This document shows, piece by piece, positions 101-42,792 of a DNA stretch of 42,792 nt. The stretch spans positions 1-42,792 of IMG/VR virus record IMGVR_UViG_3300030372_001680; one strand, written 5' to 3'. Position numbers and translations under genes: made by a program. This DNA comes from a virus (taxonomy: Duplodnaviria; Caudoviricetes). How positions within the stretch are numbered: the stretch's first letter is position 1; every line of letters begins with the position of its first letter. Under the pieces are notes generated by a model, which ran no database searches, had not been told where the DNA came from, and saw only the letters and a program-made list of their open reading frames with translations.

Positions 101-701
101 GGGTAGCTTCTGTGGGTTTTAAAGTTAGGACACGCTTATTGCCGCCGCTGATGATAGTATAAACTTCTATGAGCCCTGTTTCTTGGATGAACAGGTGAAC
201 CATTGTTGACCCAATCTTGATGCGCTCGTTTGTAGTCCACCCTTTCCAGTTTATCCCGTATCTTTCAGCCAGCGATCTAGACGAGTACTTTCTGTATTTG
301 AACCCAACACGCTTGTTTAAAGAGAGCTTTAGGTATTTCCAATCGTCTGGTCTAGTTTCCTTGAAAAGCCTGAGCCTACTTTCCTCTTCTAGAAACGAAG
401 CTATTTTTATGGCTGTAGCTGTAAGCGGTTGTTCGATACTGACGCTATCGAGTATGACTCGGCACGTTATGTCGGTGACAACCTTTGAGGGGATGTTATG
501 AAGAAGGAGGACTAACCCTTTGTTGTAACCTGCTTTATCTTCGGTTAGCCATTTGTGTATCTTTTTGTCTAACGCAGGGATACAAGCTTTAGCTAACTTT
601 CGTCCATATTTAGTAGAGGCTTCGCACTGTTTTTCTTTAAGCTTTTGATTTACTGAGCGGTATCTTTTCCGCCCCATGTCGTTCATTTCCTGTTCCTTCA
701 T
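1..701 (-). CDS. T7-like single-subunit RNA polymerase, N-terminal part (continues across the join into 42692-41183)
   Basis: Manual translation from ATG 701 (MKEQEMNDMGRKRY...WTTNERIKIGSTMVHLFIQETGLIE...APLYLPS) is open to position 1 and in frame with the 41183 ORF. Joined length is 2211 nt = 736 aa. Alternative start is ATG 686. Confidence 0.9.
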   Translation of the reverse strand, partial: MKEQEMNDMGRKRYRSVNQKLKEKQCEASTKYGRKLAKACIPALDKKIHKWLTEDKAGYNKGLVLLLHNIPSKVVTDITCRVILDSVSIEQPLTATAIKIASFLEEESRLRLFKETRPDDWKYLKLSLNKRVGFKYRKYSSRSLAERYGINWKGWTTNERIKIGSTMVHLFIQETGLIEVYTIISGGNKRVLTLKPTEATQKWISNFNEVNETLAPLYLPSESPRGYSDAVIS

Positions 702-948
702 TCGGATCTAATCCCCAACCGTCCCATTCCTGTTCTGTTCCTTCCATCGGCTCAAAGGAGCCACGGCTATTTATTGTTCCAAAGTCTAGGATACCAGAGC
801 AACCTTTAATGCAATCTATATCCTTGATTCGAAGAATAGCTTTACGAGTTTTGTCAACTCGAAGTCTAACCGCAGTAGCAGCTTTAGGCGGTTTTGGAAG
901 GAAAAGCTCAGGCACGGTTTCTAGAGCGGTTAACTGATTTACGCACAA
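637..948 (-). CDS. Hypothetical protein (start uncertain, possibly GTG near 915)
   Basis: ORF fills the gap between HNH and RNAP on the coding strand and overlaps both; no motif recognised. Confidence 0.4.
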   Translation of the reverse strand: MCVNQLTALETVPELFLPKPPKAATAVRLRVDKTRKAILRIKDIDCIKGCSGILDFGTINSRGSFEPMEGTEQEWDGWGLDPNEGTGNERHGAEKIPLSKSKA

Positions 949-1135
949 TAGCTAGATTAGAATGAGAATTATTACTAGGGTTATGGTCTTTATGGTGTAC
1001 GTCTTTACCGTCACCTTTTTTAACACGACCCATAGCCATCAACCTACGGCGAGCTTTGTTACGCATTGCCCTACGTTTCTTTTGCTCAGGTTTCCCTTGG
1101 TAGTTATCGTACTCTAGTCTGTAATTCCTAGCCAT
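908..1135 (-). CDS. Small HNH endonuclease-family protein
   Basis: GDGKDVHHKDHNPSNNSHSNL...VNRSRN HNH signature, basic N-terminus, AGGA RBS upstream. Confidence 0.85.
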   Translation of the reverse strand: MARNYRLEYDNYQGKPEQKKRRAMRNKARRRLMAMGRVKKGDGKDVHHKDHNPSNNSHSNLAIVRKSVNRSRNRA

Positions 1136-1216
1136 TTGATATTCCTTCTAATCTAAATATTATTTTTAGTCAAGGTTCGCATGCTCAGCGGCGTTGATGA
1201 TAGTAGTTGATAACCT

Positions 1217-1545
1217 GAGCGACGAGCGACGAGCGACCGACCGACGTAGCGAGCGCAGCGAGCGGAGGAGGGAGGGAGCGAGGAGCGAGGAGCGGGTTTG
1301 TTCCTTGGCCTGTCCGGCCTTGAGGACTTCCGATGCAACTGGAAGTTGCCTCCCGCCGAGCGAGCTTGCGAGCGAACGGGTGAGCCGAAAAGCAATCTGA
1401 GCGCAGCGAAGGTAGCTTTGACCGACTGGCAGCTCCGGTTGGGCGAGGCGAGACCGAAGGTCTGGGGAGCTGCCAGGCGGTCTGAGCAAAGCCCAGATGA
1501 GCGCAGCGAATCCGGGCTCTTGCGAGAGCGACCGTAGGGAGCGAA
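1217..1545. repeat. GC-rich, strand-biased GAGCG repeat tract; candidate origin or single-strand initiation element
   Basis: More than a dozen GAGCG copies on the + strand; GAGCGCAGCGA at 1251, 1399 and 1499; overlapping ORFs are low-complexity. Confidence 0.6.
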
Positions 1546-1572
1546 TGGTTTGAATGGTTGATTTGAAGGCAC

Positions 1573-1613
1573 AAAAAAAAACCCCGAGATTCCCTTACGG
1601 GAACCCCGAGGTT
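1573..1613 (-). terminator. Intrinsic (rho-independent) terminator ending the early operon
   Basis: Minus strand AACCTCGGGGTTCCC-GTAA-GGGAATCTCGGGGTT then a T run: 15-bp stem with G-U pairs and a GNRA loop, just after the stop of 1622-1843. Confidence 0.9.
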
Positions 1614-1621
1614 GTGTTGGT

Positions 1622-1843
1622 TTATCTTAGATTGATAAACTTATCTTCATCTGGATTTTCTTCTGTAGGATTATCTAAGTGATAGTATTTTCTATATCTG
1701 TCTAGGTGTTCTTGAGTCTTAGTATCTTCCATGAAGTACTTAATGGTACAAGTTACTAGAAACGATATAATCACTGTACATACAATCCACAATGCGAATG
1801 CCAGTATGGTTCCTATTGTTGGATGTATGTTAGATAACTTCAT
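1622..1843 (-). CDS. Small early membrane protein
   Basis: One hydrophobic segment (IGTILAFALWIVCTVIISFLVTCTI); overlaps the GATase stop; followed by the terminator. Confidence 0.7.
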   Translation of the reverse strand: MKLSNIHPTIGTILAFALWIVCTVIISFLVTCTIKYFMEDTKTQEHLDRYRKYYHLDNPTEENPDEDKFINLR

Positions 1844-2828
1844 GGTTTTCTATGCCACACCCCATACCGTAGTAATCGGTAGGCTTGGCTTTAGTGTACG
1901 AGTTAGTTCCTGTTTTGACGTAAGTACTGCCTTTTGTTGTGCTGTAGTTCTTTTTCTTTTTACCGCTTGGTTTGTAACTAATCTTCGGTTGATTTTCTTC
2001 AAAGGCCATGCTTGCTTGTGTGTACCCCAAGCTACCTCTGTTGAATGAAGGCATATCAGTGAACTTCTCCACTTTGACTTGCCCTTCTTCGTTTATCCTG
2101 CAAGCCCAGTTATCCTTTAGTTCGAACGCTGGAGTTGCTACCAGTTCTAGTGATTTTGCTAATTGAGATATGTAGTCTTTGCGTGTTGCAAATACCAAAC
2201 ATCCATTGTTTAAAGAAGGTATAGCTCCTGCGTACAGTGAAGCTCTTTCTCCTTTTGCTACAATGAACTCATTATCTGGTGTGATAGTAAGTGTAGCTGC
2301 ATAACCAGTTAGGTAGTCACTCCATGTGTGGTGTCCTGCTTCGTAGACGTAGGAGTTTAATAACCACTCTGAGTCGCAAGTTGAGTATCGTTTGTGCAGA
2401 TACTTTAGGTCGTCTTCGTTACCTTCGAAGTCAACTACACCGTTATGTACCATAGCGTACCCTTTCTTACGGAATGGGTGTGTGTTAGCTATAGTTTTAC
2501 CGTTGGTTGCAATACGTCCGTGTGCAATGAACGCACCAGTAGGAGCATCTGCGTGTCCACTGGACAGCATATCCATTTCTATTGCGTTACCTAGTTTGCC
2601 TAGGTGTTGTTTGGTGTAACCAACTGATCCAATACCTTTGAAGTCTGTAGGATTTACATACTTTTCACAGTAGTATGAGTGTTTTTTGGTTTGCCTTTGC
2701 TTTGTTGCGTAGGCGAATCCAAATCCATCCCGTTGACTAGACACTAACTTTTGAGAAGTTAATGCTAAAGTGTTGAGTTGTTTTCGGGTTAAACCCTTTA
2801 CGTTAGATAGTCCAATAATTTGACACAT
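1830..2828 (-). CDS. Class II (Ntn-fold) glutamine amidotransferase
   Basis: N-terminal nucleophile Cys2 (MCQIIG) and the motifs RDGFG, HGRIAT, NTHPF, HNG, CDSE. Confidence 0.9.
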   Translation of the reverse strand: MCQIIGLSNVKGLTRKQLNTLALTSQKLVSSQRDGFGFAYATKQRQTKKHSYYCEKYVNPTDFKGIGSVGYTKQHLGKLGNAIEMDMLSSGHADAPTGAFIAHGRIATNGKTIANTHPFRKKGYAMVHNGVVDFEGNEDDLKYLHKRYSTCDSEWLLNSYVYEAGHHTWSDYLTGYAATLTITPDNEFIVAKGERASLYAGAIPSLNNGCLVFATRKDYISQLAKSLELVATPAFELKDNWACRINEEGQVKVEKFTDMPSFNRGSLGYTQASMAFEENQPKISYKPSGKKKKNYSTTKGSTYVKTGTNSYTKAKPTDYYGMGCGIENHEVI

Positions 2829-2855
2829 GATAGTATTCTTTCTTTCTGTTAGTTG

Positions 2856-4061
2856 TTATTCGTTTTCTGCCATAGTTTCTGTCGGAGTATCTGTACTTAG
2901 CTCCAACTTGTTTAGTTCGTAGTGACGTTGCACTACCCATTGTTTTAGCTCTGGTTCAGCTTTGGATGACATGAAGTCACTCATGCTTCCCAGAGGTGTG
3001 TAATGATCCTTGATGAACAGTAGGAGTTCTGCCCACTTGATTATCTTGTGTGGGTTGAGTGATCCCGAGTGCAGTCGGCATTCTATTGCCTTGCGGCTAC
3101 TTACATGAGAAGTGAATGCGTAGTACTTCTCTGTTGATGAGTAACCTAGCGCACAGTACCTGTTGTTACGTCTGCTTGCTGGTACGATTTCTTTTAACCA
3201 CGGTAATGCACAAGCGAACCTTTTACCTCTGGTATGCATAGCCTCTGTACTGAGGTCACGCATATCTAAGTGAACGTGAAGCCCACATTCTTTGGAGAGT
3301 TCACATTTATTTTTTCTTAGGTGGTCTGTTAACTTGAATAACCTGCCCCACCTACCTTGTTGTAACATGATGCGAACCTCTTGTCCTCGGTGGAACTGAT
3401 GTTCTGCTTTAGGTGATACGGATACGTCATACCCCCAGCTAACACCATAGAGTTCTTTGGTTGTGTCTGGGAATTGGAAGTCGATGTCGCCTCGTTCGTA
3501 CACAATGCGTCCATCGTCATCTTCTCTTGATTTAGCTCTAGCAATGTACTCTAGTTCTATACCTATAGCAGTTCCGTGAGGTAGAACACTTTCCATTACT
3601 CTGTTTGGACTCATTGTGTTCCAAGACTCTTTGAATTGAGCTACTTTATCAGAATATGATAGTACGTTTTCATTATACTCCCGTCTGTACCATGTACGTT
3701 CGTCTTTGATTGTTCTCGCAATCTTACGGGCGAACTTGGCTATACGAGGTGTGACTCCATTTGATTCTAGTAGAGCTTTATCTCCATCGGTTAGGCAATC
3801 TCTCCAATTATAGTCGTAACCAGATCTGAGCTGACCCCCTGTTCTGTAAGGAGATGATAAGGAATCAATACCGTGGTTATCTTGTATTCGTTGGATTAAC
3901 CCGTAGTTTTTTAGGGCTGTGATGACCATGCCTTTGTTGGATAGGACTCTCGTACCATCGTTAAGGACATCGTATTCTAGAGGGATTCTTGAGTTGAACT
4001 CTCCTCTTTCGATTTGTTTGTGCAGAGCTAGGTTTATCTGTTGTTTTTTCTTTATGTTCAT
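2856..4061 (-). CDS. Putative amidoligase (COOH-NH2 ligase, glutamine synthetase/glutamate-cysteine ligase fold)
   Basis: Motifs GIELE, DVSV, CGLHVH, NRYC, IECRLHSGSL; adjacent to a class II GATase, as is typical of this family. Confidence 0.85.
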   Translation of the reverse strand: MNIKKKQQINLALHKQIERGEFNSRIPLEYDVLNDGTRVLSNKGMVITALKNYGLIQRIQDNHGIDSLSSPYRTGGQLRSGYDYNWRDCLTDGDKALLESNGVTPRIAKFARKIARTIKDERTWYRREYNENVLSYSDKVAQFKESWNTMSPNRVMESVLPHGTAIGIELEYIARAKSREDDDGRIVYERGDIDFQFPDTTKELYGVSWGYDVSVSPKAEHQFHRGQEVRIMLQQGRWGRLFKLTDHLRKNKCELSKECGLHVHLDMRDLSTEAMHTRGKRFACALPWLKEIVPASRRNNRYCALGYSSTEKYYAFTSHVSSRKAIECRLHSGSLNPHKIIKWAELLLFIKDHYTPLGSMSDFMSSKAEPELKQWVVQRHYELNKLELSTDTPTETMAENE

Positions 4062-4065
4062 AGTG

Positions 4066-4299
4066 CTAGTTATTTTTGATGATAGTTTCTACTGTTGGCT
4101 TGCCCTTTAGTGCATCATCGGCCACTTCAAGGGTAAGAGTTACTGCGGTGACGTAGGCTAGGAACCTACTCCGAGATATTTCTTTGATCTCTCCTTCATC
4201 AAGTCCTTTGAGTAGCTTTACAGATGTTTTGTGTGCCATCTGTACGGCTTCTCTTGCTTGGATTAGTTGAGCGTCTGTTAGGTTATCTATTATAGACAT
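4066..4299 (-). CDS. Hypothetical early protein
   Basis: 77-aa ORF tightly packed in the early operon. Confidence 0.7.
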   Translation of the reverse strand: MSIIDNLTDAQLIQAREAVQMAHKTSVKLLKGLDEGEIKEISRSRFLAYVTAVTLTLEVADDALKGKPTVETIIKNN

Positions 4300-4385
4300 A
4301 GGTATAATCTGTAGATGAATGCTGTTATTACGGTGATAGTACCTGCAAGGCAGATAACTCCAGTGATTAGTTCAGTTAGTTTCAT
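4290..4385 (-). CDS. 31-aa hydrophobic peptide (not in ORF track)
   Basis: MKLTELITGVICLAGTITVITAFIYRLYLCL*; its ATG overlaps the upstream stop (TAATG) and it fills the gap exactly. Confidence 0.6.
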   Translation of the reverse strand: MKLTELITGVICLAGTITVITAFIYRLYLCL

Positions 4386-4750
4386 TATGCGTCCTCCTTT
4401 GGAAAGAGTTCGTTCCATCGTTCAGGTGTGATTCCGGTCATTAGGAACTCACGTTCTTCTGCGGATAACTCAGCGAATGCGTGTTGAATGAGATCACCTG
4501 ATTGCCAGAGTAGATACTTATGTAGGAACTTAAGCATACCCATGTTTATGGTCATCTCGCCTTGTCCAGCTACGGTTGATCGTTGGACAACCACAGATCC
4601 GGTAGCCTTTTGTCCGTTCTCGTGAACAAGAAACTCACCATCTTTGGTTGCGAAGTGTGGTATTGGAGCTATGTGGCTCTTTCTTGAGTTGTGGAAATGT
4701 AAGTAGTTTGGGTGTCTTACATCTATTAGTGTTTGTTGTGTAGTTTTCAT
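4385..4750 (-). CDS. Hypothetical early phage protein
   Basis: Likely start ATG 4750 (AATACT-ATG). The C-terminal LIQHAFAELSAEEREFLMTGITPERW resembles a motif common in uncharacterised phage proteins. Confidence 0.75.
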   Translation of the reverse strand: MKTTQQTLIDVRHPNYLHFHNSRKSHIAPIPHFATKDGEFLVHENGQKATGSVVVQRSTVAGQGEMTINMGMLKFLHKYLLWQSGDLIQHAFAELSAEEREFLMTGITPERWNELFPKEDA

Positions 4751-4791
4751 AGTATTATATATGATAGTATTTATTGTCATTTGGTTTAAAG

Positions 4792-4831
4792 CCAAGGTAA
4801 GCCCGACATTGTGGTATCGGACTTACCTTGG
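4792..4831 (-). promoter_or_regulatory. 17-bp RNA stem-loop between early genes (RNase III-type processing site or weak terminator)
   Basis: CCAAGGTAAGTCCGATA-CCACAA-TGTCGGGCTTACCTTGG pairs fully on the minus strand using 2 G-U pairs; only a short U tail follows. Confidence 0.6.
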
Positions 4832-4843
4832 GTGAGGAGATGG

Positions 4844-5179
4844 TTAGGAACGTGTGTCGAACCAAGATTTAATATCAAGAGATTTGATGCCGCCATGTGC
4901 ATCACGAGACGCACGAGCTGTGATCCACATCACCTTGGTAGGTACATCACCGGAAGTTGGGAAACCAGACGGAGCTGATTCGTCCCAATCAATAGGAGGC
5001 AGAATAGTACCAATGAAGTCGTAGCTTTTACCGTCAGCAGCACGAGTAAGTTTACCTTCACCCATCTTGTCAGCGACAATCTTTTGTAATTGAGTCGTGA
5101 GTGTTACCTGTTGCTTGAGTTTCAGTTCGAGTTCAGCAATACGTTGTTTGTCTGTTGTTTCCTTAGTTTTATTAGGCAT
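4844..5179 (-). CDS. Hypothetical protein, first early gene
   Basis: Likely start ATG 5179 (AATACTATC-ATG, MPNKTKET); N-terminal coiled coil. Confidence 0.7.
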   Translation of the reverse strand: MPNKTKETTDKQRIAELELKLKQQVTLTTQLQKIVADKMGEGKLTRAADGKSYDFIGTILPPIDWDESAPSGFPTSGDVPTKVMWITARASRDAHGGIKSLDIKSWFDTRS

Positions 5180-5238
5180 GATAGTATTTTGATGTCCATC
5201 ATTTGATGCCAGAGACCCGATCCCTGATCTTATCAAAT

Positions 5239-5269
5239 AATATACGTCCCTATTGAATAGGTGAGTCAA
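5239..5269 (-). promoter_or_regulatory. Candidate host sigma70-type early promoter with a palindrome in the spacer
   Basis: TTGACT-19 nt-TATATT upstream of the first early gene; the spacer holds CCTATTCAATAGG. Spacing is non-optimal. Confidence 0.35.
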
Positions 5270-5980
5270 GGGCTGGCGACTCAGCCTGTGGCTTGCGGCA
5301 GAGGTTTCTCAGTCTCACTGAGACCTCAGACATATAAGCCAAGCAAGCTGCGGTTATCCTCGGTGCTTACTCCGTGGATCACCCAGTTACTTGGCTTATA
5401 TGACGGTGACGCAAACACTGAGCGTGTCGCCAGTGCATTTTACCCTTTACCACCTATTCACCATAGAACCCGCGTACTGGCGCCAGTTGTTTCTGATGCT
5501 GGAAATTCAAGATCAAGGGAAAAGCCTTGGCTTTTAGGCATAGGAAACTCGCGGAGCAACCACGGCAAAGCTGTGGTTGTCGCGGAGTTTGCTTGCCGAC
5601 CGGATCTTTAGGCATTGCTTGTGCTACCGTGTGTTTCCCCAAGAAAATAAGATAAAAAATAAACCGTGCTTTCTCTGTTTATTTTTTAAAACCAACGCGA
5701 CTAAAAGACGTTGGCTACAAAGAAGATGATAGTATGTTAACTTTTAGTCTCGTTGGTTGGTCTTTTTTCTTTGGAAACAGTAGGTAAGCAGAAGCTATGC
5801 CTGAATTTCCTGCATCAGGTCGTGTTATTTTTAGACAAATCCAAAGAGAGTTTGAGATTAGCCGACATATGGTCTCGAGGCGGGCTAGGCGATGTCGAGT
5901 AATCTCTCAACTCTCTTGGATTTGGCGTGAAGAAAATAACACGGCCCAAGTCGCTGGTTGGAGCTTGCGGCAGCACACTG

Positions 5981-6163
5981 TAATCCAATGAGCAGAATCA
6001 TTGGTGGTAATCCAACGAGCCAAAGCGTTGGTGGTTGATCAATCTAGCCAAAGAGATTGTCGTAATCCAATGAGCGAAAGCATTGGTCGTGATCAATCGG
6101 CGAAACGATTGTGGTAATCCAACGAGCCAAAGCGTTGGTCGTGGTACAGCGGCGAAACGCTGT
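5981..6163 (+). repeat. Tandem array of 7 hairpin units (~27-nt period)
   Basis: Stems start at 5985, 6012, 6040, 6067, 6094, 6119, 6146; loop core GCNRAA; linker T(G/C)GT(A/G)AT. Confidence 0.9.
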
Positions 6164-6380
6164 CTGCCCTTTTGATGGCAAGGTGAATGGCGCGTGTAAA
6201 TTAAAATGATAGTAGTTTAAGTTGCTGGTTTTCTGGCGCTAGTGGTGTACTGTTGCAATGGGAGTCATACGGTCGTACTCGCCGCGAGGAGCGGATACTG
6301 GATTTACCTAGTGGATTTCTTTGGATGTTCTCGAAGAGGTTATCCGAATAAATACACGGTGACATCGTAAGGGCAGTCGG

Positions 6381-6483
6381 AATCCAACGATCGAAAGCGT
6401 TGGTCTTGCGGAAGCATCGTGATCCAACGGCAAGACGTTGGGCCTCGCTGGCAAGCGTAGTGGTCAAGCGGCGATACGCTTGA
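6381..6483 (+). repeat. Second cluster of 3 related hairpin units
   Basis: CCAACG-ATCGAAAG-CGTTGG (6384), CCAACG-GCAAGA-CGTTGG (6424), TCAAGCG-GCGATA-CGCTTGA (6464). Confidence 0.8.
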
Positions 6484-6910
6484 GTTGATATTAATTTGCG
6501 AGATGAGTGAACCGAAGGGAACGAAGGAGCAACTGGTTACGCTGGCATCCTTTGAGTTATCCGAAGGATAACCTTGGGCCAAAGCCCAAGATGCAATCAA
6601 CAGGTAAGGACGCAACGACGTCGGTAACCACAGAAACTGCTAGTAACTGAAGATACCCCCCTCCCCCCTTGAAGTTTTCTGCGGGTAGTCCGTCCTGTTG
6701 ATTGTATTCAAAGGATGACAGCGGGGGTTGTTCCTGCTACCGGATAACGATATACCCCCTCGAATTATTTCGTGAAAAACCACAGTTTCTCCATAGAGAA
6801 ATTTCTGAAAACTCGAAAATACCCGATCACTTTTGATCGGCTACAGATTTTGCCGATCATTTTAATAGAGAAATAATCATCAATAAAAAAGAAGAATACC
6901 TCTTGACAAC

Positions 6911-8617
6911 CTAAAGGTTCATCCATAGGTTCTCCACAGGTTTCCTACCGAATACATGCTCTTGAAACCTTTCAAGTTCTCTAGTTATTCTAGTATCCTC
7001 TAGTTCCTTCTGTGCTTCTTCTCTAGTTCTACTGAGGTGTTCTACCCAATAACCACAGGCCATACTTAAAGCATCTAAACGGTCATCATGTCGTAAACTT
7101 CCTTTATCTCTAGTGAGTCTACTAAGTTGATAACATAAGGAGTAACTTAAGCCTGTTTTATTTATAGTATCTTTATTACAAGACCTATAATCCTCTAAGA
7201 TAACCTTAGGGTCTATAATGAGGTGATGATTATTAAGAAGAGGTTCTAGTGTGTCTATTATCCTAAGTTCTTTCTGCTTACTGTGTCTTATTTCTTCTAA
7301 GGTAACTGGATAATTAAGTTTTTTAAGGGTTTGTCTTAATAATTGAGAAAACATCCCATCTCCGAAGTTAGACTCAACAATGATCCTGTTTATATTCTGA
7401 TCTTTGGCTATTTGAGCTAATTTAGTCAGTGTTGTCTCATCGTAGCCTCCCTTAAGACCTCCAGCCTTAGTGACAAACAACTGAGAGGCCAGTATTTTCA
7501 CTACAGCATACCCTGTTTCGTCTTGTCCTCTTCCTGAGGGGTCAATAGCCATGACTGACCCTGTGTATTTCTCATGGCCTTCTGAGACCTCCATAGGGCG
7601 ATAGAAATAATCACCACTAAAACCAACGCTAGGTAGATCTTTGAGAACCAGTTCAGGACTAGAAGCCCACACTAGCTTTGGAGAAGCTACGTCATTACTG
7701 AGGGGATGGACTACAAGATCAGTAAGTTTCAACGGGTATCTCTCAAGGTCACTCAGGCGGCTATCCAGCATGAACTGTAGGGCAAACCCCATCTTACCAT
7801 AGGACATCTCTCGTTCCTGAAGGTCTATATCGTCGAATCTGTCTGGATCTGTAGGCCGTAAAGCTAGTGATTTATCACTGTCTAGCTTTTCGTGGATATA
7901 AGGAGCCAATCTGTCTCCGTAAACACTATTTACGTCTTTATCGGGGTACTTCGCTGGCCATATTCGTGTTGTATATCCTCTTTGAAGGAGTTCGTTGTAG
8001 AGTGTTTCTTCTGATTGGGGAGTACCAAGAAAAATAATCCTACCGTCAGGCTTCAGAACAGCCTCAAACTCCTTAACGGTTTCCCCCAGACGATCCCTCA
8101 TTAGCTGAGTCATGCTGTTATTGGCCGACTCAACGTCATCAGCAATGATGATGTCTGCACGAGAACCCGTAAGCTGCCCTGTGATCCCCACAGATTTAAC
8201 GCTGGGAGCGTGAGCAGCAGGAGCTGGGCCTACATCAAAGCTAATCTTAGATGATCTCTGGTCTTCATGGGGCTTCAGATGCTGCAATATGGGCATTTCT
8301 GAGATTAACCTCAGGGTAAACGTACTAAAGTCGTCAGAACGGGTCTTAGAAGCAGAAACAACCAGAAAGTTAAGCTTAGGATTCAGGAGAAGCTGGTGAA
8401 CCACAAAGGCACTGGTAATCCAGCTTTTGCCTACCCCACGGAATGCTTGAATAACTAAACGCCTTGGGCCATGCTGAACGAACTGAGCGATGTCGTTCTG
8501 AATAGGCGTAGGGTTTGGCAGGTTCAGGTGCTTCCAAACAAGAAAAAGGAAGTTTCTGAAGTCTTTCAATCTGGGGTCTATACCAGATGTGCGTTTCTTG
8601 GAGCGTGAAGGGGTCAT
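6911..8617 (-). CDS. terL: Terminase large subunit (T7 gp19-like)
   Basis: Walker A AFRGVGKS, GSRADIIIADDVE, nuclease motifs IDPSGRGQDETG and HDDRLDAL. Confidence 0.97.
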   Translation of the reverse strand: MTPSRSKKRTSGIDPRLKDFRNFLFLVWKHLNLPNPTPIQNDIAQFVQHGPRRLVIQAFRGVGKSWITSAFVVHQLLLNPKLNFLVVSASKTRSDDFSTFTLRLISEMPILQHLKPHEDQRSSKISFDVGPAPAAHAPSVKSVGITGQLTGSRADIIIADDVESANNSMTQLMRDRLGETVKEFEAVLKPDGRIIFLGTPQSEETLYNELLQRGYTTRIWPAKYPDKDVNSVYGDRLAPYIHEKLDSDKSLALRPTDPDRFDDIDLQEREMSYGKMGFALQFMLDSRLSDLERYPLKLTDLVVHPLSNDVASPKLVWASSPELVLKDLPSVGFSGDYFYRPMEVSEGHEKYTGSVMAIDPSGRGQDETGYAVVKILASQLFVTKAGGLKGGYDETTLTKLAQIAKDQNINRIIVESNFGDGMFSQLLRQTLKKLNYPVTLEEIRHSKQKELRIIDTLEPLLNNHHLIIDPKVILEDYRSCNKDTINKTGLSYSLCYQLSRLTRDKGSLRHDDRLDALSMACGYWVEHLSRTREEAQKELEDTRITRELERFQEHVFGRKPVENLWMNL

Positions 8618-8634
8618 AGAGACGTTTTTATACC

Positions 8635-8943
8635 ATGAGTGAGTCCGAACAGCCTGAACACCTTAAAGAGCCTCCTAAGCCCTATTCTGCGCGATACAGA
8701 GGGTACTACCTGATTGAGAAGAAACTGGGTCGGGAGAAGGCTTTTGGAGAAGCTCTGTATCCTGAAAAAACTATTTTCATAGATCCTCGTCAAAATTCTA
8801 AAGAAATGATGGATACAATTATCCACGAACTGTTTCATGTTATGCCGTTGAGTCGGGGGTGGAGTGAGGAGGATGTGTGTAAGTCTGCTGAGATTGTGAC
8901 GTATTTTCTATGGAAACAGGGCTACCGGAGAATACAGAAATAG
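8635..8943 (+). CDS. Small HExxH zinc-metallopeptidase-like protein
   Basis: IFIDPRQ...DTIIHELFH...EE motif; the only credible plus-strand gene. Confidence 0.7.
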   Translation: MSESEQPEHLKEPPKPYSARYRGYYLIEKKLGREKAFGEALYPEKTIFIDPRQNSKEMMDTIIHELFHVMPLSRGWSEEDVCKSAEIVTYFLWKQGYRRIQK

Positions 8944-9355
8944 GATTAAAATAAGTACGAAGGGTTTCTAGAAACTCCAGCCAAGTTTTAAGGTCAGCAT
9001 CAGATTTCCCAAAGTTTGCAAAGCGACAGCAAAGAACCACGTTACCTTCGATGTAACCTAGATTTGAATCCACTCGATCCAGAGAAACTCTTTGGGGATG
9101 TTTCGGGAGACAGGAAGTCAAGATGGGAACCTTAGTCCAGAAACAAAGTCCTTTTTGATGATGCCAGAGATGATCTAAGTAGCTCTTTTCAATTTCTACT
9201 TTAATCAAATCTCTCTTTTTACGGATTACAACAGAACACCAAAGCCTGTACTGCCAGTTTCTAGTACAATACTTTCTTTGAGATTTTCTATGATTCTCAG
9301 CCTCCGACTGAGATAATTTTGTCCTCCGAGTCGTCATAGGGTAAGTCCTCTGCAA
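8840..9355 (-). CDS. His-Me finger/HNH-like endonuclease
   Basis: QKGLCFWT...SLDRVDSNLGYIEGNVVLCCRFANFGK; start may be ATG 9337. Confidence 0.75.
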   Translation of the reverse strand: MQRTYPMTTRRTKLSQSEAENHRKSQRKYCTRNWQYRLWCSVVIRKKRDLIKVEIEKSYLDHLWHHQKGLCFWTKVPILTSCLPKHPQRVSLDRVDSNLGYIEGNVVLCCRFANFGKSDADLKTWLEFLETLRTYFNPISVFSGSPVSIENTSQSQQTYTHPPHSTPDSTA

Positions 9356-41182: not shown

Positions 41183-42792
41183 CTACGAATACATATACTT
41201 TGAGTGCCAAACTTCGTCAACTGAAAACTTTCCAATAATTTTGGAGAGATCTTTTTGAAAGTCATAATAACACTGTTTTTCCAGTGTTTTTCGAGTAAAA
41301 ATTTTTTCGAAAAAAATGTTAGAATCATTTCTAAAAATTTTTAGGTACGCTTGTTTCACATTTTTTATTAACTCAGGAAGGTTTGGAGCATGAGTACCAA
41401 AGCAATCGTGAATCGAGTACACATCAGTCAACGCCGTTGATGATAGTGCCATATGCATAATTGAAGCATCGAGGCTGTGAACAAAATTTGGAGCAAAACT
41501 TCTAGCTATTTTTGTTCTGTCTAGCTTGTCTGTAGGCTCCCTGTAAGTGAGGCTATGTGACTTACCAAGAATGTAAGATGAGCATTTGTGTATTTTTTCC
41601 TTGCGGTAGTCGAGGGTAATAGGGAATCCTGACGGCGACAGCCAACTCACTTCACCTTCGTGACCTTCTGCGAGTCCCTTAAGATACCTTAGTACCTTAG
41701 GATACTTAGGGTATAACCTAGAGAATATATTTATTATAGTCTTAGCTATAGTATCTGCTTTATCTAAGGTATCCTTAGTGTACTTAACTCCTAACCAAGC
41801 TTTAGTTATTTCTATTGCTCTGAAGGTAGTACAACCATAAGGGATGGTCATCACAATGGACTTCACCAAGTCTCTTGTTATCGGGATGTTTAACTCAGCT
41901 TCGACTTCGGTTTGTATTCTTGAATAGATGTCGTGCTTAGAATCGTTGGTCAGGTTTGTCCATAAAGCACCTTCTTCGTCCTTAAGGATTAAGCTTAAAA
42001 TCTGTAGCCCGTTAGAAGAAGCATCAGCAGAAACCGGAAGAGAGGTTTCCCCTGTCTCCACAGCATTAGCATAATCAAAAACCCACGCTAAGAATTGCCA
42101 AGGGTTTTTAGCGTCTGCCCACCACAAAAACCCAGTAGGGTTATACAAAGTTTCCTTCACCTTTTCCTGCCAATCAGAGTCGAAACCTCCGTACAAGTTT
42201 GCGCCATGTTCGATTAGGTTAGACATGGATTGTCCTACCTCTACTTTCCTCTCAAACTTTAGCAAAGCTCTGGCTAGATCTGGGCCTTGTGGGTTCAGGA
42301 AATTGGGTATGCAGTATGCCCTTCCTCTGAAATCCATTTGATGCGGGAAGTACATGGTCTTTTCCATGTATTCCCTAGCTACCCAGAGCATCTTAGAAAC
42401 CCTAAGCCTAGAAGACCGTAGTGCGTGGTCTTCTCGGTAGTACTTAGCGGCTTCATACTTCCATTTCTTTTTAGCTTCTTCGTTGGAATCAAAGTCAGCA
42501 GGTTTGGGCGGTATGTTATCTAAAGCAAACGGAGGAAAGTCAGCTACTTGGTATTGGTTAGCCCAAAAGTAATGAGCTACGTCATACACCTCTTGGTTTA
42601 CGACCCAAGGAGTGCTTTTTAATTTACCTACAGCTTGGCGAGGTATTGTTAGGTTTACTCGGTCGAGAAGTTCCCACTGTTTTTCTGATTTAGTACTAAT
42701 AACAGCATCGCTATATCCACGAGGCGATTCTGAGGGCAGGTAAAGCGGGGCTAAGGTTTCGTTAACTTCGTTAAAGTTCGAGATCCATTTCT
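41183..42792 (-). CDS. T7-like RNA polymerase, catalytic C-terminal part
   Basis: DFRGRAY; motif A DASSNGLQ; motif B RDLVKSIVMTIPYG; PNFVHSLDAS; motif C IHDCFGTH. Frame is open to the window end. Confidence 0.96.
   Translation of the reverse strand, partial: KWISNFNEVNETLAPLYLPSESPRGYSDAVISTKSEKQWELLDRVNLTIPRQAVGKLKSTPWVVNQEVYDVAHYFWANQYQVADFPPFALDNIPPKPADFDSNEEAKKKWKYEAAKYYREDHALRSSRLRVSKMLWVAREYMEKTMYFPHQMDFRGRAYCIPNFLNPQGPDLARALLKFERKVEVGQSMSNLIEHGANLYGGFDSDWQEKVKETLYNPTGFLWWADAKNPWQFLAWVFDYANAVETGETSLPVSADASSNGLQILSLILKDEEGALWTNLTNDSKHDIYSRIQTEVEAELNIPITRDLVKSIVMTIPYGCTTFRAIEITKAWLGVKYTKDTLDKADTIAKTIINIFSRLYPKYPKVLRYLKGLAEGHEGEVSWLSPSGFPITLDYRKEKIHKCSSYILGKSHSLTYREPTDKLDRTKIARSFAPNFVHSLDASIMHMALSSTALTDVYSIHDCFGTHAPNLPELIKNVKQAYLKIFRNDSNIFFEKIFTRKTLEKQCYYDFQKDLSKIIGKFSVDEVWHSKYMYS

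What the first reader, a model, noticed from the sequence alone, without database searches (positions are those of the whole stretch)
5254..6742. ~1.5-kb multi-domain structured non-coding element, folding on the strand opposite to the phage genes
Seen: nested long-range helices form separable domains. Domain 1: 5254-5263 pairs with 5451-5460 and encloses CTGGCGAC/GTCGCCAG and a perfect 13-bp CATATAAGCCAAG (5331-5343)/CTTGGCTTATATG (5390-5402). Domain 2: 5494-5509 pairs with 5802-5817 and encloses 5690-5707/5741-5758 and CAACCACGGC/GCTGTGGTTG. Domain 3: 5818-5831 pairs with 5933-5946 around a long rod. Then comes the hairpin array. Domain 4 is closed by 6221-6235/6631-6647 and holds a junction with GTTATCC-GAA-GGATAAC and CTTGGGC-CAAA-GCCCAAG. 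The informative non-Watson-Crick pairs are G-T on + (they would be A-C on -), whereas the terminators in this genome have their wobbles on -. Known: large ornate phage-associated ncRNAs exist (GOLLD, ROOL), but I recognise no such family and no intron, tmRNA or RNase P signature here, and T7 has no comparable element near its ends. Inference: an undescribed giant phage ncRNA transcribed divergently from the early operon, or a structured ssDNA element at the genome end.
Basis: partly seen in the sequence, partly recalled or inferred. Interest (0 to 1): 0.9.

Follow-up and report, generated by a model that had tools for sequence, protein, structure and literature searches.

The report
Self-folding DNA strand at phage end
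The first 1.5 kb of this marine T7-like phage genome has evolved to fold back on its template strand, and in seven relatives the fold pairs the whole first gene with a worn inverted copy; a one-strand motif resembling known phage nick sites punctuates the opposite strand, so this is likely folded single-stranded DNA rather than an RNA, which would keep the first gene readable as the genome enters the cell.

Summary
The folding is real (z −17 as RNA, −24 as DNA, + strand) and selected: natural variants keep pairs or delete whole helices. It lies at the predicted left (leading) genome end, between the terminal repeat and gene 1. It is a clade trait: 20 of 24 members of one terminase clade have long inverted repeats here without shared sequence, against 5 of 47 loci outside. 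In seven, gene 1 pairs with a degenerate inverted copy (rods spanning 770–960 nt; G·T 147 vs A·C 45 on the template strand). The loops lean towards DNA type. Contigs stop just past it (13 of 30, expected 10%). Best reading: a nick-bounded leading end becomes single-stranded and folds into a pseudo-duplex, working like plasmid Frpo promoters. No single-stranded phase or nick is shown directly, and a + strand ncRNA remains possible (0.2). There is no Rfam match. The scan noted structured ends on unrelated phages (e1-247564), but not this system.

The parts
5254..5460 (+). Domain 1; its outer helix overlies the -35 box of the predicted gene 1 promoter
   Evidence: variants keep pairs by G.T, and T5448G turns the partner arm into a TTGAC copy
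5494..5817 (+). Domain 2, branched; displays loop GTGCTTTCTC (5666-5675), seen on different stems in relatives
   Evidence: compensatory change 5655/5686 and loss of the sub-hairpin 5530-5591 in one variant
5818..5946 (+). Domain 3, imperfect rod
5973..6163 (+). Array of short hairpins with 6- and 8-nt purine-rich loops on varying stems; further copies at 6372-6483
6164..6376 (+). Dispensable domain; shares GGATGTTCTCG/GAGGTTATCCGAA words with L002 and L030
   Evidence: absent (6128 joined to 6394) in runs X5, X7, X11
6540..6723 (+). End domain: a perfect four-way junction with no unpaired bases; pairs predicted terminal-repeat sequence with unique left-end sequence
6600..6606 (-). TACCTGT, like the ATCTGTT that follows the T7 terminal repeat; marks the inner edge of the predicted repeat
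   Evidence: T7 bases 161-167; L008 and L049 end at this word; its pause function in T7 is recalled
6607..6761 (-). Predicted direct terminal repeat, about 155 nt; outer edge inferred from conserved GAGGGGGTAT
   Evidence: spacing 156-182 nt between the two words in the window and 7 relatives; inferred, not mapped
6207..6214 (-). TACTATCA, predicted nick site
5727..5734 (-). TACTATCA, predicted nick site; two differing X5 contigs begin at 5730, the base after TACT
5179..5186 (-). TACTATCA overlapping the gene 1 start; first site beyond the fold
152..4769 (-). Nine further ACTATCA sites (4769, 4341, 4086, 3664, 2835, 2289, 1687, 1205, 159); a thirteenth at 41447 is contiguous on the circular map
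5239..5269 (-). Predicted host promoter of gene 1: TTGACT 5269-5264, 19-nt spacer, TATATT 5244-5239
   Evidence: only sense TTGACW in the first 2.2 kb; one RNA contig stops at 5232 (one study, weak)
4844..5179 (-). Gene 1, 111 aa: coiled coil plus small beta domain; possibly nucleic-acid binding (weak)
6911..8617 (-). Terminase large subunit, last gene before the predicted repeat

Best explanation
The template strand of this phage's predicted leading end has evolved to fold on itself, and it likely does so as single-stranded DNA: the coding strand is predicted to be nicked at TACT^ATCAY about every 500 nt, its pieces would be removed as the genome enters the cell, and the freed strand would fold into a pseudo-duplex that likely resists nucleases and would keep gene 1 transcribable. 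In the window, L005 and L030 the fold rebuilds the -35 box only. In seven relatives it rebuilds the entire gene. Shown: the folding, its strand, its clade-wide spread, the gene-length inverted copies, the polar motif, and contig ends near the motif. Inferred: the genome end, the nicks, the single-stranded phase, its timing at entry, and transcription from the fold.
For: (1) Strand: G.T 64 vs A.C 18 in 14 regions; 147 vs 45 in seven gene rods, expected share 0.56, P 6e-9. (2) Selection: of 14 window changes at paired positions seen in related populations, 7 keep the pair (3 by forming G.T, 1 more by T.G, 1 wobble to Watson-Crick, 2 as one compensatory pair), and 2 give a tandem G.A motif. Deletions remove whole helices. 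(3) Clade trait: inverted repeats of 100 nt or more in 20 of 24 clade members vs 5 of 47 outside. (4) Seven loci pair intact gene 1 with a degenerate inverted copy nearer the end. (5) Loops: GNA triloops 9 vs reverse complement 0 among 45 triloop hairpins; GCGNAGC 18 vs 1 and 23 vs 4 in 25 regions; GNRA 2 and UUCG 0 of 44 tetraloops. These mini-hairpins are stable and nuclease-resistant as DNA and mark ssDNA origins and N4 promoters (PMC13037366, passages). (6) Motif: ACTATCA 13 in the first 8.3 kb sense, 0 elsewhere on either strand, P 7e-14; 99 sense vs 0 antisense downstream of terL in 23 clade loci, 0 in 76 kb upstream. TACTATCAC differs by one base from TACT/ATGAC, a mapped top-strand nick of phage tf. 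(7) 13 of 30 contigs end within 50 nt past the motif, expected 0.098, P 2e-6; the best of 107 control words gave P 0.045. Two X5 contigs that differ within their first 30 letters both start at 5730. (8) A motif follows the gene-side end of the fold within 100 nt in 13 of 20 loci, P 1e-5, and in all 7 gene rods at 31-100 nt.
Against: No nick, single-stranded intermediate or transcription from the fold was observed; there is no isolate and no host. A 500-bp duplex piece does not fall off unaided, and no enzyme that strips it is identified. T7-like phages are held to inject duplex DNA (recalled). The proven nicked phages tf and phiKMV show 0 nt, and LUZ24 80 nt, of such repeats in their first 2 kb, so nicks do not imply folding. 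Folding stops at gene 1 while the motif runs on to 8 kb; early coding windows fold no better than late ones. The -10 box is not rebuilt in the window, and a TTGAC in the fold is clear in only a few loci. Contigs of X2, X7 and X11 span the sites they cover, X3 stops near 1 of 4 sites and X5 near 2 of 3. Contig ends could mark strain-divergence points instead of breaks. Seven of the 14 changes at paired positions break a canonical pair (two of them the G.A motif), and 29 variant rows were not shown. G.T bias fits RNA equally well. The window's own loops are GNRA-compatible; 6 of the 18 mini-hairpins come from L012; and 12 CCGAAG words could be sense-strand UUCG loops. Relatives are not independent samples.
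Confidence: 0.45

Rival explanations
1. The same strand folds as single-stranded DNA, but during replication or concatemer processing rather than at entry. The phage 5' exonuclease would resect from the end or from nicks, and the folded 3' strand, with its four-way junction beside the terminal repeat, would protect or self-prime the end.
For: The end domain pairs repeat sequence (6694-6723) with unique sequence (6540-6604) as a perfect junction. The genome encodes an exonuclease, endonuclease I and an endonuclease VII-like gene. In phikF77 nicks are repaired early and reappear late (PMC3517423 Discussion).
Against: It does not explain why seven relatives duplicate exactly gene 1, or why the fold reaches the gene 1 promoter.
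Confidence: 0.2
2. The element is a long non-coding RNA made leftwards from near gene 1, like a transcript from T7's leftward A0 promoter. It would act as a protein decoy or scaffold through its repeated loops.
For: G.U-compatible bias; multi-domain folds; a constant loop GTGCTTTCTC on changing stems in the window and 4 related phages; repeated hairpins; RNA-library contigs lie on parts of the element, strand unknown; T7 has a leftward promoter.
Against: No + strand sigma70-like promoter upstream; no conserved family sequence or architecture; few RNA-type tetraloops. In seven relatives the RNA would be a self-masked antisense copy of gene 1. It leaves the motif's placement unexplained.
Confidence: 0.2
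3. The motif is a Chi-like signal for the host RecBCD/AddAB enzyme, read on the + strand. Processing from the left end would spare the 3'-ending template strand, which then folds.
For: An 8-nt, polar, coding-independent word repeated near one end, in the orientation Chi needs (Chi polarity recalled). It predicts the same folded strand.
Against: Chi would not break DNA in samples, yet contigs stop at the word. The word nearly equals a proven nick motif. The host is unknown, so host enrichment was not tested.
Confidence: 0.1
4. The repeats are relics of inverted duplications at a fragile genome end, decaying by strand-biased mutation, with no function.
For: Sequence turns over quickly; domains are dispensable; deamination of an exposed strand would also give G.T excess.
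Against: Compensatory and helix-respecting changes, recurrence in 20 of 24 members, and conserved loops on different stems. Strand-biased deamination itself needs a single-stranded phase.
Confidence: 0.05

Closest known systems
Frpo/ssi single-strand promoters of conjugative plasmid leading regions (PMC11541004, passages read)
   Same: First DNA to enter; one strand folds to mimic duplex over promoter elements in front of the first genes.
   Different: Here the carrier is a tailed dsDNA phage with no known single-strand transfer. The fold is 0.6-1.5 kb; only the -35 box is rebuilt in the window, and an entire gene in seven relatives. Sequence similarity to Frpo was not tested.
Site-specific virion nicks of tf, LUZ24/PaP3 and Rembedalsseter (TACT/RTGMC, WACTRTGAC), phiKMV-like phages and T5 (PMC3517423, PMC11780129)
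   Same: One-strand motif beginning TACT, on the coding strand, concentrated in the early part, often at gene starts. Amidoligase and glutamine amidotransferase genes lie in the early region here as in tf and LUZ24.
   Different: C instead of G at position 7; about 500-nt spacing; confined to 8 kb. The other strand folds here and not in tf, LUZ24 or phiKMV. Nicks here are predicted only.
DNA mini-hairpins of phage G4 origin, ssiA and N4 virion-RNAP promoters (PMC13037366, passages)
   Same: GNA-loop hairpins biased to one strand, here the template strand.
   Different: They are embedded in much larger folds; this phage has a T7-type polymerase and no N4-type virion polymerase was annotated.
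Large phage-associated ncRNAs GOLLD and ROOL (properties recalled)
   Same: Long, multi-domain, non-coding, in a phage.
   Different: No Rfam match; no conserved sequence or architecture across relatives; tied to the genome end and to gene 1.
T7 left end (terminal repeat, concatemer-junction signal, promoters A0-A3)
   Same: Gene order, a junction-like word after the repeat, and a gene-free leading stretch.
   Different: T7 has 0 nt of long inverted repeat in its first 2 kb. Here a single TTGACW promoter sits after the folded stretch.

Membership tests
Rfam RNA families (GOLLD, ROOL, introns, tmRNA, RNase P) | Covariance-model score above the family threshold | tested here: not met
   0 hits in the window and in 18 relatives; three sub-threshold hairpin matches; no tRNA or tmRNA
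Large structured ncRNA in general | Discrete stranded transcript | not testable with these tools
   Only unstranded contigs were served
Large structured ncRNA in general | Alignable family with covarying shared structure | tested here: inconclusive
   One compensatory pair and wobble-keeping changes among about 96% identical variants; no alignable homology at 75% terminase identity
tf/LUZ24-type nick system | Motif on one strand only, enriched in the early part | tested here: met
tf/LUZ24-type nick system | Exact consensus WACTRTGMC | tested here: not met
   Consensus here is TACTATCAY; one base differs
tf/LUZ24-type nick system | Physical nick after TACT in virion DNA | tested here: inconclusive
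   Indirect only: contig ends and two X5 contigs starting at 5730; other runs span the sites
Frpo/ssi ssDNA promoters | Fold rebuilds -35 and -10 as duplex | tested here: inconclusive
   -35 yes in the window, L005 and L030; -10 not in the window
Frpo/ssi ssDNA promoters | Located on the T-strand of a conjugative element after oriT | tested here: not met
   Complete T7-like phage gene set with no conjugation genes annotated
Frpo/ssi ssDNA promoters | RNA polymerase initiates on the folded single strand | not testable with these tools
   Needs in vitro transcription
Chi sites | Over-represented and skewed in the host chromosome | not tested
   Host unknown; the genome scan gave one distant prophage
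PC4-like/DUF736 single-strand-binding fold for gene 1 | Significant profile or fold match | tested here: inconclusive
   No Pfam or PHROG family for the beta domain; DUF736 TM 0.47/0.58 for L001; Pur-alpha Z 3.6, rmsd 3.2, 53 aligned, tied with unrelated folds
T7-type short direct terminal repeat | Physical ends flanking a 150-200 nt repeat | tested here: inconclusive
   L008 and L049 stop at the junction-like word; no read pile-ups for the window itself

The most novel reading that the evidence does not exclude
A clade of marine T7-like phages has a programmed single-stranded phase. Its virion DNA is nicked every 500 nt on the coding strand of the leading end, that strand is shed on entry, and the template strand folds with a built-in decoy complement, up to a whole inverted gene copy, to be transcribed as a pseudo-duplex. 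This would give phage DNA nicks their first function and extend plasmid-style ssDNA promoters to tailed phages.
Probability: 0.4. Interest if true: 0.95.

Novelty: categorically new. Interest (0 to 1): 0.85.

Why it matters
Site-specific nicks in phage DNA have been known for about 50 years with no established function (PMC11780129 section 3.9, read). Here a nick-like motif is paired, across a clade, with an evolved fold on the opposite strand, which makes the question testable: map the nicks, look for the single strand, and transcribe the fold. A tailed dsDNA phage that runs its first gene from folded single-stranded DNA would change the picture of genome entry and of how phage ends avoid end-processing nucleases and restriction. 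Even if the molecule is RNA, gene-length imperfect inverted copies of the first gene, kept in seven lineages, were not found in my literature searches.

Tried and rejected
Homologue searches for the element. Blastn against 50,697 annotated phage records gave only a chance 44-nt hit. Two exact patterns from the element found 0 in viral contigs. The amidoligase query found no viral contig. Six of the 15 hits to the end-word pattern were inspected; they show no polar motif and look unrelated. L047 has a 99% identical terminase, but its last bases do not match the window, so its end was not used.

RNA runs. X8 and X20 (one sample, one study) carry contigs over many phage genes and over parts of the element; the bins over 5201-6000 had little or no cover, and X21 had none at all. 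Unstranded contigs cannot show level or absence, so I use this neither for nor against an RNA.

Motif as a sigma70 -10 box or phage promoter. Rejected: no conservation outside positions -1 to +7 in 68 contexts, and it often abuts the start codon.

Folding across the whole motif zone, or in tf and LUZ24. Not seen in 200-nt windows. Fixed windows understate long helices.

Nicking enzyme. The 75-aa HNH and the endonuclease VII-like gene have no tblastn match in tf or LUZ24; none is assigned.

Gene 1 as a single-strand-binding protein. The window model is poor (pTM 0.32). The L001 core model (pLDDT 77) has no significant match; the profile finds mostly its own members. Acidic tails ending VPF, LPF or PVF in L005, L030 and L054 are a lead only.

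Loop GTGCTTTCTC as an anti-ribosome-site. Its complement GAGAAAG occurs 8 times on the sense strand and matches none of the 37 listed gene starts closely; not supported.

Host. Not identified; best isolate terminases are 57-60% identical.

The careful tree did not finish; the quick tree is used.

Literature searches for a prior description returned nothing relevant. Subscription journals are largely missing from the library, and no supplements were read.

Full report
Context. The window is a complete, circularly permuted T7-like phage of 42.7 kb with a 100-nt end overlap; all annotated genes lie on the minus strand. The runs that hold it are marine. Its nearest isolate terminases are 57-60% identical, and the host is unknown. 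The finding lies between the terminase stop (6911) and the first early gene (start 5179).

The observation. Domains 1-3 and the end domain fold far beyond shuffles (z -9.0, -9.5, -7.6, -5.7), and the whole element gives z -17 as RNA and -24 as DNA on the + strand, against -10 and -18 on the minus strand. The array (z -2.7) and 6164-6500 (z -2.2, -1.2) are weaker. Rfam has no match in the window or in 18 relatives.

Selection on the fold. Related populations in three other studies (X5, X7, X11; about 96% identical) carry 28 listed changes in the element; 29 further rows over the stretch were not shown. Fourteen of the listed changes fall at paired positions. Seven keep the pair, including the compensatory pair 5655/5686 and four changes that give G.T on the + strand. 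Two turn adjacent pairs into a tandem G.A motif, and five break a pair. Both single changes from the RNA runs also break a pair. Deletions remove whole helices (5530-5591; 6129-6393), and in X7 and X11 gene 1 is replaced up to 5252, the edge of domain 1.

Where it lies. In T7, ATCTGTT follows the terminal repeat directly. A similar word lies at 6606-6600 here and in most relatives, and two contigs (L008, L049) end exactly at it. A conserved GAGGGGGTAT lies 156-182 nt before it in eight sequences. I infer a terminal repeat near 6607-6761. The element is then the first 1.5 kb of the left end, and the folding strand is the template strand, whose 3' end is at that terminus. This was not mapped from reads.

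A clade trait. A quick terminase tree gives a 24-member clade (SH-aLRT 99) that holds the window. Long inverted repeats (100 nt or more in the 2 kb after terL) occur in 20 of 24 members and in 5 of 47 other loci; T7, phiKMV and tf have 0 nt and LUZ24 80 nt. The sequence is not conserved. Some members have branched domains. Seven (L001, L016, L068, L074, L079, L080, L081) have rods spanning 770-960 nt in which intact gene 1 pairs with a degenerate inverted copy lying nearer the end; in L001 and L016 the copy runs from the ribosome site into the terminator. Mismatches favour the template strand: G.T 64 vs A.C 18 in 14 regions (three of 17 left out of the total), and 147 vs 45 in the seven rods after allowing for composition (P 6e-9). 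In the window, L005 and L030 the outer helix covers the TTGAC box of the gene 1 promoter, and the variant T5448G perfects that copy. The -10 box is not rebuilt in the window.

DNA or RNA. G.T bias does not decide this. Loops lean to DNA: GNA triloops 9 vs 0 reverse complements among 45, GCGNAGC 18 vs 1, and only 2 GNRA and no UUCG among 44 tetraloops; 23 vs 4 in a wider set. A review (PMC13037366, passages read) reports that such mini-hairpins are far more stable as DNA, resist nucleases and occur at ssDNA origins and N4 promoters. Against this, the window's own loops are GNRA-compatible, L012 supplies 6 of the 18, and 12 CCGAAG words could be sense-strand UUCG loops. No + strand promoter-like site precedes the element. 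The RNA runs are unstranded contigs and do not decide.

ACTATCA occurs 13 times in the first 8.3 kb of the sense strand and never elsewhere on either strand (P 7e-14). In 23 clade loci it occurs 99 times sense and 0 antisense after terL, and 0 times in 76 kb before it; outside the clade the counts are 20 and 14. The consensus is TACTATCAY with median spacing 495 nt. Phage tf is nicked on its top strand at TACT/RTGMC (PMC3517423, passages and Discussion read), and Rembedalsseter at WACTRTGAC, with function unknown (PMC11780129, passages and section 3.9 read). An Autographiviridae phage, Andromeda, is nicked at an unknown motif (10.1101/619015, passages). Among 30 clade contigs that end after a motif (13 with no motif before the end and 2 flank-limited were set aside), 13 end within 50 nt past it, against 9.8% expected (P 2e-6); none of 107 control words came close. 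In run X5 two contigs that differ at 5709 both begin at 5730, the base after TACT. Other runs span the sites, so breaks would be partial or library-dependent, and strain divergence is an alternative cause. A motif follows the gene-side end of the fold within 100 nt in 13 of 20 loci, and in all seven gene rods; repeat detection in that count is noisy.

Mechanism. The simplest account joining these facts is that the coding strand of the leading end is cut into pieces of about 500 nt and removed up to the nick just beyond the fold. The template strand then pairs with its built-in complement. That would shield it and give RNA polymerase a duplex promoter or gene, as Frpo does for plasmid leading strands (PMC11541004, passages). 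Gene 1 may bind single strands, but the evidence is weak. What strips the strand is unknown, folding ends at gene 1 while the motif continues, and proven nicked phages lack the fold. I give this full account 0.45, the same fold acting in replication or packaging 0.2, a + strand ncRNA 0.2, Chi-like processing 0.1 and neutral decay 0.05. About three quarters of the weight is therefore on DNA.

Novelty. It is not a member of any Rfam family, not Frpo by context, and one base off the tf nick consensus. Nine paper searches found no description of a folded leading strand or an inverted copy of the first gene in tailed phages; subscription papers and supplements were not seen. Earlier scan notes hold no look-alike of this stretch or its terminase, though they mention structured ends in unrelated phages. 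GOLLD and ROOL properties, Chi polarity, the T7 junction pause and duplex injection by T7 are recalled, not from calls.

Noticed in passing
window 1153-1574, + strand: A second non-coding stretch inside the motif zone, rich in GAGCG repeats, with three GCGNAGC mini-hairpins and one GCGNNAGC on the template strand. L012 has a similar stretch next to its terminal repeat.
   Followed up: partly
window 6546-6717: Perfect four-way junction with no unpaired bases, a possible substrate or decoy for the phage's junction-cutting endonucleases; L014 has a similar tight multi-way junction.
   Followed up: no
window 5666-5675; L007, L009, L030, L048, L145: Identical loop GTGCTTTCTC shown on different stems, up to three copies per genome; a likely protein-binding loop.
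   Followed up: partly
window 6904-6909, + strand: TTGAC[AT] at the terminase stop codon, pointing back into terL, kept in the close relatives.
   Followed up: no
window 1830-4061: Early amidoligase and glutamine amidotransferase genes, as in LUZ24-like phages that carry the related nick motif; also present in L007, L014, L016, L030.
   Followed up: partly
window 908-1135 and 8840-9355: A 75-aa HNH protein and an endonuclease VII-like gene between the terminase genes, the latter kept across the close relatives; candidate nicking enzymes.
   Followed up: partly
window 4788-5252: Gene 1 is replaced by 279 nt in X11 and by 51 nt in X7, while the folded domains stay.
   Followed up: no
L022 and L019, downstream of terL: Strong local folding (z to -13) outside the clade, near a homologue of the 75-aa HNH.
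   Followed up: no
L031, L134: Loci outside the clade with three sense ACTATCA copies each; L134 also has 208 nt of inverted repeat.
   Followed up: no
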